This document shows, in pieces, positions 8,730 to 63,283 of a DNA stretch of 64,000 nucleotides. Under the pieces are notes generated by a model. It searched no databases. It saw only the letters and a list, made by a program, of their open reading frames with translations, and was not told the DNA's origin. Both the position numbers and the translations under genes were made by a program. The stretch's first letter is position 1. Every line of letters begins with the position of its first letter. This DNA comes from Candidatus Thorarchaeota archaeon (GTDB lineage Archaea; Asgardarchaeota; Thorarchaeia; Thorarchaeales; Thorarchaeaceae), in assembly GCA_963726195.1 (NCBI GenBank), contig CAVSBO010000008.1, forward strand, positions 64,001-128,000, written 5' to 3'.

Positions 8730-9430
8730 CTAAAGATTGTGAGGTTCTAAGGTCTGCATCGTCCTTGCAGTTGCCTCTTGGGGCGTATCAGTGCTGCCCT
8801 CCGACATATCACTTTCTACGTCGGATTGAGAAACGCCCACAGGACGCAATGCTATGTTGAACGAAGCATTGACGTCGGCGTTCTCCACGTACCCGCATGT
8901 TAGGCACTTGAATCTCTTACCGTTCCGGTCTCCTAAATGGCCGCACCTCGAACAGCTCTTACTCGTCCATGCAGGCTCGATGTAGGCTACGACTATTCCT
9001 TGCAGCTTGGCCTTGTAATCGACAAACTTTCGTAGCTGGCAGAAGGACCAACTGTTCAAGGAGTAGTTGAACGACTTTACATGTTTCTTGTCCTTTCGGA
9101 TGCCGCTAAGGTCTTCGAGCTTGATACCAGATCCCGAAGCCTTTGCTGTCTCGACTATCTTACTGCTCATCCTGTGGTTAATGTCCCTGACAATGCGGCT
9201 CTCTCCGTTCCTAATCTTCTTGACCATGCTATACTTCCTGCGTTTCTGGAGCCTGCGCCGGATGTTCTTGTACTTCTTGTGGATATGCCGGCATTGCTTG
9301 CCGAGCTTCCATACCTTTCCGGTCCTCGGATTACACACGACGGCCGCATGTCCGGTAGCGTTGAGGTCTACGCCAATGTAGTATTCTGGTTCCAAAGCTT
9401 CCTTCTCGGGTACGCTCACGCTGACATAGG
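8730..9430 (-). pseudogene. tnpB: tnpB 3' part (RuvC + Zn ribbon)
   Basis: IGVDLN, KLEDL, TSKSCSRC...CLTC, NADVNASFNI. Confidence 0.92.
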
Positions 9431-31829: not shown

Positions 31830-33698
31830 ATGTCTCGAAACCGCGGCGTGAGGTATACAGCGGCATTTCTCCTGTTAATCTCGTTCTCTTACATAGGACT
31901 GCTTGTGTCAGGCTTCAGTACTTACACATCGTTCACTAACCCATACAGCTACATTCCAATAGGCCCCGTCTCATCCATCGAAGGGATGGGTGCTGTTCCA
32001 CTTGCCAACCGTACTGTTATCTTCGTACTTGACGGGCTGCGAGCAGACACATTCTATAGCACTCCCAAGCCTCATATTGAATCGCTTGGCAACTGGGCCA
32101 ACTACACATCTATTCACTGCTCGACTCTTCTCAGCGTAAGCAGAACTGGCTATGCTGTGATCTCCTCGGGAGTGAATTCCACCGAAAGCGGGGTTATTGA
32201 CAACGATGTGCATGGGGTCTTCCCGGGCGACTCTCTTTGGAATACGACCGTTGCTAACTCAGGAACCACTGCTGTAATAGGCAGCGACGCTTGGTACGAC
32301 ATGTTCGGACCTTGGCTTAACTACTCTCTCACTTTTACCGACACGGAGCCGGGAAGCGACTCGATTCTCATCAACGCCACCACAGGTGCCGTGCTCAGCA
32401 GGACGTCGGTGCCAACGTATTATGACAGTCTTGTCTCCTCATATGCAAGGCTCCTTTTCGAAGAGCATCAGCCTACCCTAATGGTGGTCCACTTCTGCGG
32501 AACGGACGAGGCTGGTCATGCGAATGGAACATCCAGCGCGTCTTATGTGAACGCACTGAAGAACGACGATTCCTACATAGGCGAAGTCCTTGGTGCATAC
32601 GAGACGGCCGGATTGCTGAATTCAACGCTTGTAATAGTCACTGCAGACCACGGGCAAATAGACATTCGACCAGGTCATGCGGAACATGGTGGAACGGAGG
32701 AGGTCGTCCTTCACGTTCCTCTGATAATGAGAGGACCAGGAGTGAAACTTGGGACCTATGGAGCACCAGCACATCAGAATTCTATTGCTCCGACGATAGC
32801 CGCTGCCATGGGTTGGGCCATACCCTCTGATTGCTCAGGGACAATTCTATTTGATTGCCTCAATCTCTCTTCACAGCAAGTCGCCATTCACAGAATCAAT
32901 TTGGCGGAGGTGCGTGCGGCTCAGGCCGGGAAGACAGTCAGCAAGATGGGATACCTTTCAATCTACGAACCAGAGCTCACGGACTGCGCATTGCACCTTG
33001 TGTATTCCCAAGGCAACTTCACCGCTGGGAATTGGACTGCCGCTTCGCAAGATGCCCTCTTCACACAGACAATCGCTGAGACGGTTTTGCGGGAGTCTTG
33101 GTCAGCGAAGGCTGCCGAAGAGCGCACATTAAGGCTGGAAATCGTTGTGGCGGTTGCAGTTGGTGCCATCCTTCTCGCGGCTGTTATCATACGAGGGCCC
33201 GTTGCCAGAGCAAAGAGTGCGGATTCTGAAAAGCTCCGGATGCTTCTTGTGGCTATTACAGTACTTGCATACTTCGGCTTCCTGTACATTGGGCTGTCAC
33301 TGTTTGGTTGGAAGTTCTCTGCTAGCTATTTCTTCACTAGTGTCGGGGAGTTTGTGGTTATGACCTTTGGTCCCACCTTCTTCGCAATAGTGCTCGGCAG
33401 CATTCTTCTTTTCTTGCTCCTCAAGGCAGCTGACCACGTGTACTCCGCGAAGTCTAACCTGACCACATGGGCCACCGCCTTCGTTTTCTTTGTGGCGGTC
33501 GTGTTTCTGCTGATCACGGCATATTTCATCGTTGACGCGGGTCCGGGACTATTTTGGTTTGCCCGAGATGCAGATAGGCCGATAATGTACTTCTCTATGG
33601 TTCTTTCATACTTGGCCTTCGCGCTCTTCGCATTCCTCGGTCTGCTCGGTAGCAAAATCGTCTCTCGGATATCGCAGAGAGGGTCCCACAGTGGTTAG
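31830..33698 (+). CDS. Alkaline-phosphatase-superfamily membrane protein (PIG-N/O/G-like architecture)
   Basis: LDGLRAD, SVSRTGY, DEAGH, TADHG, HGG; one N-terminal TM and multiple C-terminal TMs. Confidence 0.8.
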   Translation: MSRNRGVRYTAAFLLLISFSYIGLLVSGFSTYTSFTNPYSYIPIGPVSSIEGMGAVPLANRTVIFVLDGLRADTFYSTPKPHIESLGNWANYTSIHCSTLLSVSRTGYAVISSGVNSTESGVIDNDVHGVFPGDSLWNTTVANSGTTAVIGSDAWYDMFGPWLNYSLTFTDTEPGSDSILINATTGAVLSRTSVPTYYDSLVSSYARLLFEEHQPTLMVVHFCGTDEAGHANGTSSASYVNALKNDDSYIGEVLGAYETAGLLNSTLVIVTADHGQIDIRPGHAEHGGTEEVVLHVPLIMRGPGVKLGTYGAPAHQNSIAPTIAAAMGWAIPSDCSGTILFDCLNLSSQQVAIHRINLAEVRAAQAGKTVSKMGYLSIYEPELTDCALHLVYSQGNFTAGNWTAASQDALFTQTIAETVLRESWSAKAAEERTLRLEIVVAVAVGAILLAAVIIRGPVARAKSADSEKLRMLLVAITVLAYFGFLYIGLSLFGWKFSASYFFTSVGEFVVMTFGPTFFAIVLGSILLFLLLKAADHVYSAKSNLTTWATAFVFFVAVVFLLITAYFIVDAGPGLFWFARDADRPIMYFSMVLSYLAFALFAFLGLLGSKIVSRISQRGSHSG

Positions 33699-33701
33699 AT
33701 T

Positions 33702-33931
33702 GTCAACTACCCGCGACTAAAGTCGCAGGCTTGCCACTGCGATCCGTGGTAGGAACTCTACCTCGTCATTTCGCGCGACGTTTGGGCGGTTGACTTTCGC
33801 CCTCCCGACCACAGCATTGCCACGGTCGGACACGATCCTTCACTTTTCAAGCTCACATTTAAACTCGTATATCCCGCGGCGTCGTTTTCTCCCCCGACTG
33901 AAGTCGGGCGGTCTCCTCGCCGCGTTTCTAT
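33702..33931 (-). mobile_element. Non-autonomous IS200/IS605 mini-element (left end + promoter + omega-RNA), copy 1
   Basis: Left-end hairpin CCCGACTTCAGTCGGG; right end GCCTGCGACTTTAGTCGCGGGTAGTTGAC; preceded by TTCAT; ~90% identical to 63012-63240. Confidence 0.85.
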
Positions 33932-33955
33932 ATGAATGAGTGTCCCATCATGATG

Positions 33956-42588: not shown

Positions 42589-44627
42589 TCATTGTAAGTT
42601 GGACAAAGTTGGACATATTTCCTTTGTCCTCCCAGGAACGGCACTGGGACTCTGGACATGAATTATGTTTCGTGCAGCATTGATGTCCGCATGAATGTGT
42701 GAGTCGCAGTTTGGACAGTAGAAGTACTCTCCACCTTTCTGTTCCACCTTTGACCTGCAACTATCGACACGTATGCCTTTCTGCCTGCACACATGGCAGG
42801 TCTGGCTGGTGTAGGCGGGGTTCACTGTCCACACACTGTACGGGCTATGACCCAGTGACTCGCGCATGTACCGGACAGTGTCGATAACCTCTCCCCACAG
42901 GTTGGTGGAGAGTCTCCACGACAGGGCTCCCTGACCAGCCGGGGTCTGGTAGTTCCTCAAGTCTTCGAAGTAAACGGTCTTCACACTGTGCTCTTCGCAG
43001 AACCAAACAGTGTGCGAAGCAACCAACCGGGAAACTTCACGGTCGAGACGACGCACCTTCTGCCACACAGCATCCTGATGTCTCTCTTTTTTTAGCAAGA
43101 ACACAGGATGCGACAGCCCCGGCCGTTTCTTGTCCCAGTTGTTCCTTCTCCTGTCCACTTCGGATCTGAGCAGCGAGGCCTGTTCTCTAAGCCTCTCCCT
43201 TTTCTCCAACAGATACTCCACTCTAAGCAGCTCGTCCAGGTAATCACCATCCTCTTGAACTGAAAGGGCAACGGGGACTCTCACACCCCTATCGACACCG
43301 GCTAGTGCAGTGTACTCCTTTTCTCCTAAGACCTGCAGCAGAGTCTTTCTGTCAGGGGAAAGAAAGGGGATTTGGAGTGTGACGCGATGACCTCTCATGA
43401 GCAGGCGAGGTGGGGCACTCCTCCTCAAGGACTTCAAACTCTTCATATCGGCCTCGAGCCTCGCCACCTCTTCGGGGTCGGATTCTCTCTTCTGTCTGAG
43501 GCATGAGAGCGCGTAGGCCAAGTGCTGGACTTGAATGGTGTTCATGAGCTGTTGGTGTTGGTCCTCAAGCTTCGCTGCCCTGAACCTCAGCCTGTGTTGC
43601 ACGAGCAACTCTTCCCTCCTGCTCGACTGCCTCGGCTCTGTTACGGCCGTCTCCCGCAGCACGAGGCAGCCAGTTCAGAAATCTGAAGGTCAGAGTCTGA
43701 GTACCATATGGAGAACCGTCGCTGGGTGTGCCATCGAGTCCCGGGAGGGAGCTTGATGTGGAGGAGAACCTCATTCTCCCTATCGTTGTCGAGTGTGAAC
43801 CAGTAACCCTGTCCCACACTGTTCTCTGTCGATGCCGAGTAGTCAAGGCTCCACTTTCTGAGCTGAGGGACTGTAAAGGGATACCCCTCCTTGTGCCAGC
43901 ATTGTATCCGCTCAGCTACGAGCGAGGTCACTTCCCCGAACTCGGGCGAGTTGGCCTGCAGGTGGTCACCGACCCGCTTCCTCTGCGCAGACCTCGACCC
44001 AAGGGGCTGAGCAAGTGAGGAGAGAATGTACTCGTCAAGAGCCCTCCTGATCTGTTTCAGAGCACCCAAGGCATAGTGATATCCTGTACCGTTGTCCTTT
44101 GCACGCTCACAGGAGTCTCTCACCTTTCGTATCAGGTCAGCTGGAATGTATCTGTTCCTGAGCAAACGGAGTTGGTCGGCAAGGGAAGCATCCAGAAGAG
44201 AAACTGCAGATTCCACAAGCCTTCTTCGAGTGTGGTCAGCATGAACCGTCCTGGCAGCCTGTTCCAGTACGTCCCTATGAAGCCTTTCGAACACAAGCTG
44301 TCTGAACTCTTCGTTATGCTGGTAACAGAGGTCACGCTCCTTCCTGAGGAGCGTGTAGCCATAACCCCTGTACTTCGTCAGCTCTTCGCCCAACCTCTTT
44401 GCTCTTGCAGGGTGAGAATAGACTCGCTCAAGTGCGAGGTTGACCGCCTTCACATACCTGTCCAAGTAAGTACCTATGGTAGCCAGCCCAAGATCCCCGA
44501 CCTTTGTGCCAAAGGTCCTGCATAATGTATGCAGTCTTTCTTGGGATGATATGGATGCGTTTGAGGGGAAGGTTCTCCTACTGAAGGCCGGGTCTGGCTG
44601 CTTTCCAAGACCTTTGTGCGAGGGCAT
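42589..44627 (-). CDS. Large TnpB/Cas12f-like RuvC nuclease, ~680 aa (frameshifts near 43745 and 43590)
   Basis: AGVDRG (RuvC-I), YFEDL (RuvC-II), TSQTCHVC...CPNC, HADINAARNI (RuvC-III). Confidence 0.88.
42596..42615 (+). repeat. Tandem subterminal motif (AAGTTGGACA)x2
   Basis: Read directly from the sequence. Confidence 0.9.
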
Positions 44628-62890: not shown

Positions 62891-63011
62891 CGCGGTTTTT
62901 CACCTCAGGACTAGGTTCAGTGGTCCACGATGGTCGTCTTATAAGCATTGTGCATAATCGTACATTAATGTACATATGTGTGCATCAACCGAACTGCCAC
63001 ACTTCTTTCAT

Positions 63012-63240
63012 AAAGAAGCGCCGCGAGAAGACCCCCAACTTCAGTCGGGGGAGGAAACGCCGCCACGGGATATACGAGTTTAAATGTGAGCTTGAGAAGT
63101 GAAATATCGTATCCGACCGTGGCAATGCTGTGGTCGGGAGGGCGCATGTCAACCGCCCGAATGTCGCGCGAAATGACGAGGTAGAGTTCCTACCGCGGAT
63201 CGCAGTGGCAAGCCTACGACTTTGGTCGCGGGTAGTTGGC
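63012..63240 (+). mobile_element. Non-autonomous IS200/IS605 mini-element (left end + promoter + omega-RNA), copy 2
   Basis: TTCAT at 63007-63011; left-end hairpin CCCCCAACTTCAGTCGGGGG; right end GCCTACGACTTTGGTCGCGGGTAGTTGGC. Confidence 0.85.
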
Positions 63241-63283
63241 CTTTCCACAATGCTCAAGCCAATAGAATCTCAAAACGGTTCAC

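What the first reader, a model, noticed from the sequence alone, without database searches (positions are those of the whole stretch)
63007..63260. Mini-element copy 2 shows a TATA box positioned to transcribe an omega-RNA
Seen: left-end hairpin, then TTTAAA (63079-63084, identical in both copies). About 28 nt later comes a G-U-rich hairpin CCGACCGTGGCA-A-TGCTGTGGTCGG, also identical in both copies; its G-U pairs fix the strand. Next, GTCAACCGCCC can pair with the terminal GGGTAGTTG(A/G)C, and the A-to-G difference between copies keeps a U-G pair. The segment translates as AHVNRPNVA, like a TnpB C-terminal tail. The predicted guide is CTTTCCACAATGCTCAAGCC. Its ends differ from both TnpB elements in this window. 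Inference: self-expressing mobile guide cassettes serving a TnpB encoded elsewhere, in effect a dispersed guide repertoire.
Basis: partly seen in the sequence, partly recalled or inferred. Interest (0 to 1): 0.75.

Follow-up and report, generated by a model that had tools for sequence, protein, structure and literature searches.

The report
Gene-less TnpB guide-RNA mini-transposon
This 229-base repeat is a cut-down copy of a TnpB jumping gene in an Asgard archaeon that has lost the nuclease gene but keeps both transposon ends, the gene's own promoter box and the complete guide-RNA scaffold; it is real and looks functional, but it belongs to a kind of element already described.

Summary
Window 63012-63240 (+) and 33702-33931 (-) are two of seven ~229-bp copies in this genome, and all seven share one internal deletion junction. 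They derive from a ~1.28-kb IS200/IS605-type, TnpB-only element. Four full-length copies with open ~386-aa tnpB genes lie elsewhere in the genome, none in this window.

The mini keeps:
- the TTCAT target motif and the left-end hairpin;
- the tnpB promoter box (TTTAAA);
- a 129-nt omega-RNA scaffold;
- the right end, followed by a locus-specific guide.

Covariation across 18-21 relatives supports five helices and a pseudoknot. The TTTAAA box ends 27 nt before the scaffold. That matches the 25-30 nt spacing of TATA-like boxes before tRNA genes in this genome. Among the protein-less copies, the scaffold and the box are conserved while the spacer drifts, and 9 of 10 changes at paired sites keep the pair. 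So the refutation criterion (random decay) is not met.

Expression and TnpB loading remain unproven, and no intact TnpA was found. The guides match nothing but their own flanks, so "guide repertoire" is not supported beyond homing. Stand-alone omega-RNAs and PATEs are published. This scan has also reported sister copies of this element on other pieces of the same genome. Verdict: new member of a known kind.

The parts
63007..63011 (+). TTCAT, the target/transposon-adjacent motif (TAM) immediately 5' of the left end of copy 2
   Evidence: Conserved as TTCAT/TTCAC/TTGAT/CTCAT at the left boundary of all 11 genomic copies, while the DNA further out is unrelated. Related metagenome copies show the same motif.
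63012..63240 (+). Mini-element copy 2 (229 bp), an internal-deletion derivative of a ~1.28-kb TnpB-only IS200/IS605-type element
   Evidence: blastn and alignment give 7 mini copies with one shared deletion junction, plus 4 full-length copies with the same ends.
63018..63066 (+). Left-end subterminal imperfect palindrome: inner stem 63032-63039/63044-63051 with loop TTCA, and an outer GC-rich stem
   Evidence: Present in all copies. Compensatory changes occur in divergent relatives L018 and L019. The energy alone is not unusual.
63079..63084 (+). TTTAAA, a TATA-like box inherited from the tnpB promoter
   Evidence: Invariant in 7/7 minis. It aligns with ATTTAAG/TTTAAA ~27-31 nt upstream of the tnpB ATG in full-length copies and relatives. 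It ends 27 nt before the scaffold, and the same box type ends 25-30 nt before the mature end of 11/20 tRNA genes.
63085..63111 (+). 27-nt spacer between the box and the scaffold; the predicted transcription start lies in its last few bases
   Evidence: It is the most variable segment among the minis (pi 0.187). It has no counterpart in the full-length copies.
63112..63240 (+). 129-nt omega-RNA scaffold. Helices: H1 63112-63138; H2 63140-63158; three-part stem 63163-63209; right-end hairpin 63212-63233. Pseudoknot: 63148-63153 with 63235-63240.
   Evidence: RNAalifold and pair counts on 18 sequences give 97.6% of cells paired, 10 pairs with double changes and 0/500 shuffles as good. The wider set gives 38/41 pairs with double changes. 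The covariance model R1 scores this copy at 149 bits.
63241..63260 (+). Predicted guide of copy 2 (the first ~16-20 nt of flanking DNA after the right end)
   Evidence: Similarity among copies stops exactly after ..GTTGAC/GGC. Homology to same-genus genomes resumes at about 63244.
33702..33931 (-). Mini-element copy 1 (230 bp). TTTAAA is at 33863-33858, the scaffold at 33702-33830, the TAM at 33932-33936 and the guide at 33682-33701.
   Evidence: Alignment to copy 2. R1 scores it at 156.9 bits. The orthologous intergenic region of same-genus genome G022 lacks the element.

Best explanation
The repeat is a non-autonomous, protein-less derivative (PATE-like) of an IS200/IS605-family, TnpB-only (IS1341-type) insertion sequence in an Asgard archaeon. 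One internal deletion removed nearly all of tnpB. It fused the element's left end, including the tnpB TATA-like box, to the last 129 nt of the element, which are the complete conserved omega-RNA scaffold. This cassette then spread to at least seven TTCAT sites (shown).

The rest is inferred. Transcription would start about 22-27 nt after TTTAAA, at or just before the first scaffold helix, and run through the right end into flanking DNA. That would give an omega-RNA whose guide is the neighbouring 16-20 nt. The RNA would be loaded by TnpB made from the four full-length copies. As for full-length elements, the complex would cut the TTCAT+guide 'empty' site left after excision, so that recombination restores the mini-element. 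The mini thus hitch-hikes on TnpA for movement and on TnpB for retention.
For: Copies and origin:
- Seven minis share one junction, alongside four full-length copies with open ~386-aa TnpB genes.
- The TnpB has TNB/zinc-ribbon and OrfB domains. Its LEDL and HADLNAARNI motifs align to Cas12f/TnpB structures.
- The insertion is absent from the orthologous site of same-genus genome G022.

Scaffold structure:
- Covariation supports it: 97.6% paired, 10 double-change pairs, slid controls 30-51%. With distant relatives, 38/41 pairs covary.
- G-U pairs fix the sense strand.
- The H3 stems pair within the 129 nt, so the mini holds the whole conserved core.

Promoter box:
- It is conserved in position before tnpB in divergent relatives.
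- It ends 27 nt before the scaffold, against 25-30 nt for 11/20 tRNA genes and a 0.9% background.

Conservation among the minis:
- Diversity is 0.052 for the scaffold, 0.115 for the left end and 0.187 for the spacer.
- Variable sites number 18/129 against 36/87 (p=1e-5).
- At paired sites, 9 changes keep the pair and 1 breaks it.

Published precedent:
- Stand-alone omega-RNAs work in trans (PMC10691335).
- PATEs 'often encode omega-RNAs' (10.1101/2023.03.14.532601).
Against: - No expression data of any kind exist, so the TSS, the 3' end and TnpB binding are all inferred.
- No intact Y1 TnpA was found in the 88.9%-complete assembly, so current mobility is unproven.
- All minis descend from one deletion event, so retention of the scaffold at the outset could be luck.
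- Many mini variants are shared with full-length copies. Gene conversion, rather than selection on the minis, could therefore explain part of the conservation.
- The tRNA box pattern was defined after looking at the tRNA upstream regions.
- A crude scan upstream of protein-coding starts showed no positional TATA signal.
- In full-length copies RNAalifold offers alternative pairings with upstream coding sequence, so the native RNA might be longer.
Confidence: 0.8

Rival explanations
1. It is an inert decay product. The mini is simply a deleted IS that TnpA could still move because both ends survived. The scaffold is conserved only because the copies are young, because the right end is needed for transposition, or because of gene conversion with full-length copies. 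No functional RNA is made.
For: - All copies stem from a single deletion.
- Copies are only 7-11% diverged.
- Several mini variants also occur in full-length copies.
- Archaeal PATEs are known to arise by core deletion as a form of IS inactivation (PMC3119063).
- Folding energy is no better than shuffles.
Against: - Within the same copies, the spacer and the left end vary 2-3.6 times more than the 129-nt scaffold. The scaffold is far longer than a TnpA right-end site would need to be.
- TTTAAA and its flanks are invariant in 7/7 copies.
- Changes at paired sites keep the pair 9:1.
- The deletion left the box at tRNA-like promoter spacing from helix 1.
Confidence: 0.13
2. It is a portable promoter or regulatory RNA. 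The main effect of the mini is on its neighbours: read-through from its TATA box into the downstream gene, or antisense RNA against a convergent gene. A TnpB-independent small RNA, like the haloarchaeal sotRNAs, is another form of this idea.
For: - Copy 2 points into the radical-SAM gene that starts 44 nt after the right end.
- Four of seven minis are co-oriented with the downstream ORF, and two face a convergent gene.
- sotRNAs of IS1341 elements were reported as functional ncRNAs in archaea (PMC4615843).
Against: - There is no consistent orientation or distance to neighbours.
- What is conserved is the TnpB-type scaffold with its pseudoknot, shared with elements that do encode TnpB. Nothing conserved relates to the neighbouring genes.
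Confidence: 0.05
3. It is a programmable guide repertoire. The seven guides direct TnpB to other loci, host or viral, for defence or regulation.
For: [quoted passage not shown] Minis outnumber nuclease genes 7 to 4.
Against: - Every guide matches only its own flank.
- The best second matches (17/19 and 16/18 for copy 2) have seed mismatches and no TTCAT.
- The two IMG/VR hits to the copy 1 guide lack a TAM and are at chance level.
Confidence: 0.02

Closest known systems
Stand-alone omega-RNA loci of OMEGA systems (Altae-Tran et al. 2021, as summarised in PMC10691335)
   Same: They are mobilised copies that carry an omega-RNA but no effector or transposase. They sit in the same genome as effector-containing loci and use the effector in trans.
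   Different: The published cases were shown to work biochemically, and here nothing has been assayed. The host is an Asgard archaeon. Here the origin is traced to one deletion that placed the tnpB TATA-like box at promoter distance from the scaffold.
PATEs (palindrome-associated transposable elements) of Haloquadratum walsbyi (PMC3119063) and Geobacillus stearothermophilus (Meers et al., 10.1101/2023.03.14.532601)
   Same: - They are too short to code.
- They have subterminal palindromes instead of inverted repeats.
- They make no target duplication.
- They derive from IS605-type elements by core deletion.
- Meers et al. note that PATEs often encode omega-RNAs that need TnpB in trans.
   Different: Many Haloquadratum PATEs are terminal-only (52 bp) and cannot hold a scaffold. 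This element keeps 129 nt of scaffold plus a promoter box, and the scaffold shows signs of purifying selection.
ISDra2-type TnpB omega-RNA (reRNA) of IS200/IS605 elements (PMC8612924, PMC10097598)
   Same: - The RNA overlaps the tnpB 3' end.
- It ends at the right end with a guide taken from the flank.
- It uses a 5-nt TTSAY-like TAM (TTGAT in ISDra2, from my own knowledge).
- A pseudoknot joins an internal loop to the nucleotides just before the guide.
   Different: The sequences are unrelated and there is no Rfam match. In ISDra2 the RNA comes from the tnpB transcript or region, whereas here the gene is gone and the mRNA promoter would drive the RNA directly.
sotRNAs of archaeal IS1341-type tnpB genes (PMC4615843)
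   Same: They are archaeal sense transcripts from the 3' end of tnpB. That paper also noted one in a truncated 120-bp pseudogene.
   Different: No BRE-TATA was found upstream of the haloarchaeal sotRNAs, whereas here a TATA-like box is present at canonical distance.

Membership tests
PATE / non-autonomous IS200/IS605 derivative | Subterminal palindromes at both ends and no terminal inverted repeats | tested here: met
   The left-end hairpin (loop TTCA) and right-end hairpin (loop TTTR) share the GAC-TTYA-GTC core. The right-end hairpin has 5 pairs with double changes, and the left-end hairpin covaries in L018 and L019.
PATE / non-autonomous IS200/IS605 derivative | Insertion 3' of a short conserved target motif, without target-site duplication | tested here: met
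   A TTCAT-like motif lies at the left boundary of all 11 copies, and the flanks are otherwise unrelated with no direct repeat. The G022 ortholog is collinear once the element is removed.
PATE / non-autonomous IS200/IS605 derivative | Too short to encode a protein, and derived from a coding IS by core deletion | tested here: met
   The copies are 227-231 bp. Only ~25 codons of the TnpB C-terminus remain. They align at both ends to four 1.28-kb copies.
PATE / non-autonomous IS200/IS605 derivative | A Y1 (HUH) TnpA is available in trans | tested here: inconclusive
   PF01797 gave no match. NF033573 gave only a 15.6-bit C-terminal fragment at G000:C16:15503-15589. The assembly is 88.9% complete.
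TnpB omega-RNA (OMEGA guide RNA) | The scaffold overlaps the 3' end of tnpB and stops at the right end, with the guide coming from flanking DNA | tested here: met
   In the four full-length copies and in the metagenome and other-genome relatives, the same 129 nt cover the last ~25 codons plus the 3' UTR and end at GGTAGTTGAC.
TnpB omega-RNA (OMEGA guide RNA) | A conserved secondary structure supported by covariation | tested here: met
   The pseudoknot is supported by A40G+U126C in the C5 full-length copy and by the U-G pair in copy 2.
TnpB omega-RNA (OMEGA guide RNA) | A cognate TnpB with RuvC and zinc-finger motifs is present in the same genome | tested here: met
   There are four open ORFs with PF07282 at 79 bits. 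The GxDRG, LEDL, CxxC..CxxC and HADLNAA motifs are present.
TnpB omega-RNA (OMEGA guide RNA) | The RNA is expressed and bound by TnpB, and guides TAM-dependent cleavage | not testable with these tools
   No transcriptome or biochemical data are available.
Archaeal TBP/TFB promoter | A TATA-like box about 25-30 nt upstream of the RNA 5' end | tested here: met
   TTTAAA ends 27 nt before the scaffold. 11/20 tRNA genes of this genome carry YTTAAD/TTTTAT boxes ending 25-30 nt before the mature end, against a 0.9% background. TBP is encoded in the genome.
Archaeal TBP/TFB promoter | A BRE upstream of the box, and a mapped transcription start | tested here: inconclusive
   The upstream ACGAG only loosely resembles the A-rich ..AACG of the tRNA promoters. 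No TSS data exist.
Rfam RNA families | A match above gathering score | tested here: not met
   There were 0 matches in the whole window.

The most novel reading that the evidence does not exclude
The protein-less copies would be selected, self-promoted guide-RNA genes that outnumber their nuclease genes 7 to 4 in an Asgard archaeon. TnpB loaded with them would do more than restore excised copies. It might, for example, protect or regulate the neighbouring host loci, as a step from selfish homing towards a host-used RNA-guided system.
Probability: 0.07. Interest if true: 0.6.

Novelty: new member of a known kind. Interest (0 to 1): 0.3.

Why it matters
This is a clean natural example of how a TnpB transposon can shrink to a ~230-bp 'guide-RNA gene'. 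One deletion put the nuclease gene's own promoter at the right distance from the RNA scaffold, and the RNA part stayed conserved afterwards. The example does three things:
- It extends stand-alone omega-RNAs and PATEs to Asgard archaea.
- It gives a defined minimal scaffold (129 nt), a TAM (TTCAT-like) and a matching compact nuclease (386 aa) that could be tested directly.
- It offers a covariance model for finding more such elements.

It does not change the current picture of TnpB biology.

Tried and rejected
- **Rfam scan of the window:** no family matched.
- **Single-sequence folding:** energies were not better than shuffles on either strand, and neither was the left-end DNA hairpin.
- **Crude scan upstream of about 1,200 long ORFs for a positional TATA signal:** uninformative. 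It was replaced by the tRNA upstream analysis.
- **Empty site for copy 2 in same-genus genomes:** not clean. In G023 and G024 a PadR-HAAS gene pair lies between the two flanking genes, and in this genome that pair sits 2.6 kb downstream. Copy 1 gave the usable empty site, and the C4 copy gave none.
- **TnpB homologues in 87 genomes of the same order at E<=1e-30:** none apart from this genome.
- **One protein scan of genome contigs:** it gave only one 5'-truncated relative.
- **Guides against the genome and IMG/VR:** no TAM-adjacent targets.
- **Origin of the 27-nt spacer:** not found in full-length copies or elsewhere in the genome.
- **Longer native omega-RNA pairing with upstream coding sequence:** support is weak, resting on one clade-level change with 3 exceptions. 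The within-scaffold H3 stems covary in distant relatives.

Full report
**What is there**

The 25-nt hairpin sequence occurs exactly twice in the window, at 63113-63137 (+) and 33805-33829 (-), against 0 expected by chance. The two copies align over about 230 bp and differ outside it.

In the whole genome (19 contigs, 2.92 Mb; the window is C8:64001-128000), blastn finds two classes of copy:
- seven copies of 227-231 bp;
- four places where only the two ends match, about 1.28 kb apart.

Those four places are full-length elements, each with an open reading frame of about 386 aa. The protein carries the TnpB/Cas12f TNB zinc-ribbon domain (79 bits) and a weak OrfB_IS605 match. Its best solved relatives are Cas12f and TnpB, with the LEDL and HADLNAARNI motifs aligned.

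The mini's 'G-U hairpin' and the AHVNRPNVA reading are the last ~25 codons of this TnpB. All seven minis share one deletion junction. They therefore descend from a single deletion and multiplied afterwards.

**Boundaries and mobility**

Similarity among copies begins after a TTCAT-like pentamer (TTCAT, TTCAC, TTGAT or CTCAT). It ends at ...GGTAGTTGAC, or ...TTGGC in copy 2. Beyond these points the flanks are unrelated and there is no target duplication.

For copy 1, the orthologous intergenic region of same-genus genome G022 is collinear with our sequence once the 230 bp are removed. That is an empty site.

For copy 2 the locus is rearranged in the relatives. Even so, homology resumes within 4 nt of the right end.

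Both ends carry subterminal hairpins with the same GAC-TTYA-GTC core. This is the IS200/IS605 (PATE) architecture.

No intact Y1 TnpA was found in the 88.9%-complete assembly. The genome encodes TBP and a full-length actin (445 bits). The nearest foreign copy lies in a Promethearchaeota MAG. The host is therefore an Asgard archaeon. Earlier notes of this scan call it Thorarchaeota, but I did not verify the class.

**The RNA**

I aligned the last 129 nt of 18 copies: 7 minis, 4 full-length copies, 1 MAG copy and 6 metagenome copies at 76-85% TnpB identity. RNAalifold gives four elements:
- a 12-bp 5' hairpin;
- a GGGCG/CGCCC hairpin;
- a three-part stem;
- the right-end hairpin.

The last six nucleotides pair with the loop of the second hairpin, forming a pseudoknot.

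Counted on the alignment, 97.6% of cells pair and 10 pairs show changes on both sides. None of 500 shuffles reaches this, and slid controls pair at 30-51%.

Specific compensations:
- C-G to A-U at positions 6/22;
- G-C to C-G at 33/43 (L019);
- A-U to G-C at 40/126 in the C5 full-length copy;

Column 119 covaries with column 104, not with column 47.

Many G-U pairs fix the sense strand.

A covariance model built from this alignment finds exactly these 11 loci in the genome. It also finds weaker hits in 10 of 150 other genomes of the phylum, and none in 26 genomes of the same family. Most of the distant hits sit at the 3' ends of 355-430-aa TnpB genes, and some have no gene.

On the wider alignment, 38 of 41 pairs have double changes. 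These include the central stems, which were invariant in the close set. That alignment is fitted to the model and so leans towards it. Because the central stems pair within the 129 nt, the mini holds the whole conserved core.

**The promoter box**

TTTAAA aligns with ATTTAAG or TTTAAA about 27-31 nt upstream of the tnpB start codon. This holds in the full-length copies and also in relatives whose left ends are otherwise diverged. The box is therefore the nuclease gene's own promoter box.

A crude look upstream of protein-coding starts was uninformative. The tRNA genes were more useful. Eleven of 20 have a YTTAAD/TTTTAT-type box that ends 25-30 nt before the mature 5' end, against 0.9% of random windows. 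In the mini the box ends 27 nt before the first scaffold nucleotide.

I defined the box pattern after seeing the tRNA upstream regions, so this is supportive rather than a blind test.

**Is it decaying at random?**

Nucleotide diversity among the seven protein-less copies:

| Segment | Diversity (pi) |
|---|---|
| Spacer | 0.187 |
| Left end | 0.115 |
| Box +/- 8 nt | 0.065 |
| Scaffold | 0.052 |

Variable sites number 18/129 in the scaffold against 36/87 in the left end plus spacer (Fisher p=1e-5). Changes at paired columns keep the pair in 9 of 10 cases. Paired columns also change less often than unpaired ones, 10/94 against 9/35.

Caveats: the numbers are small, the copies are related, and several variants are shared with full-length copies. 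Gene conversion could contribute.

**Guides**

Each guide is the flank of its own insertion. None has a second TTCAT-adjacent match in the genome. The two 18-nt IMG/VR matches to the copy 1 guide lack a TAM and are at chance level. The guides therefore fit the published homing and retention role and do not look like a targeting repertoire.

**What is known**

- Stand-alone, mobilised omega-RNAs that work in trans with compatible effectors are described (PMC10691335, summarising Altae-Tran 2021).
- Meers et al. state that PATEs often encode omega-RNAs that need TnpB from other IS copies (10.1101/2023.03.14.532601).
- Archaeal PATEs arising by core deletion of IS605-type elements were defined in Haloquadratum (PMC3119063).
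- A 3' tnpB transcript in a truncated archaeal element was noted in PMC4615843.
- This scan has already reported sister copies of this same element on other pieces of this genome (e1-5629830, e1-5626060), with the same conclusion.

My analysis reached that conclusion independently and adds three things:
- the tRNA-spacing argument;
- the diversity contrast within the minis;
- the corrected pseudoknot.

**Verdict**

The element is a new member of a known kind and of modest interest.

Noticed in passing
window 62990-63244, compared with L029 (G024:C4:25700-29100) and L030 (G023:C121:8700-12100): In two same-genus genomes a PadR regulator and a HAAS-domain membrane protein lie between the PLP-enzyme gene and the radical-SAM gene. 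In this genome that pair sits about 2.6 kb downstream (G000:C8:129865-131324), and the mini-element occupies the junction. This is a local rearrangement next to the element.
   Followed up: partly
G000:C16:15503-15589 (-): This is the only trace of an IS200-type Y1 transposase in the assembly. It is a 15.6-bit match to the last 29 positions of NF033573, in a 63-aa frame, beside another TnpB gene (C16:14574-14765). It is probably a TnpA remnant.
   Followed up: no
L044, L045, L048, L049, L051, L056 (other genomes of the phylum): Covariance-model hits to the same scaffold type have only short ORFs upstream (37-147 aa). Truncated or gene-less omega-RNA loci of this family therefore seem to recur in other Asgard genomes.
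   Followed up: partly
G000:C13:96179-96197 (-) and G000:C3:455196-455213 (-): The copy 2 guide has 17/19 and 16/18 near-matches elsewhere in the genome, against about 0.03-0.1 expected. The C13 site is preceded by TTCGT, one base off the TAM, but has two mismatches in the TAM-proximal 10 nt. This is probably chance.
   Followed up: partly
L039:4778-4795 and L040:8501-8518 (IMG/VR contigs): Two viral contigs share an exact 18-nt match to the copy 1 guide. The match is preceded by ATATT rather than a TTCAT-like motif, and the count is about what chance predicts for a collection of this size.
   Followed up: yes
window 42589-43662 (-) and 8730-9419 (-): These are two other TnpB-domain ORFs in the window, of 357 aa and a truncated 229 aa. 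They belong to different element families, and neither the mini sequence nor model R1 matches them. The genome has 35 TnpB-domain hits in 2.9 Mb.
   Followed up: partly
L010:1001-1417 (Promethearchaeota MAG JBGLND010000001.1): The closest copy in a named genome is 5'-truncated. Only TnpB residues ~252-384 remain, with an intact scaffold and right end. This is a different kind of partial copy from the internal-deletion minis.
   Followed up: no
L021:879-1017: One metagenome copy carries a 10-nt tandem duplication inside the right-end hairpin (..GTCGACTTTAGTCGG..).
   Followed up: no
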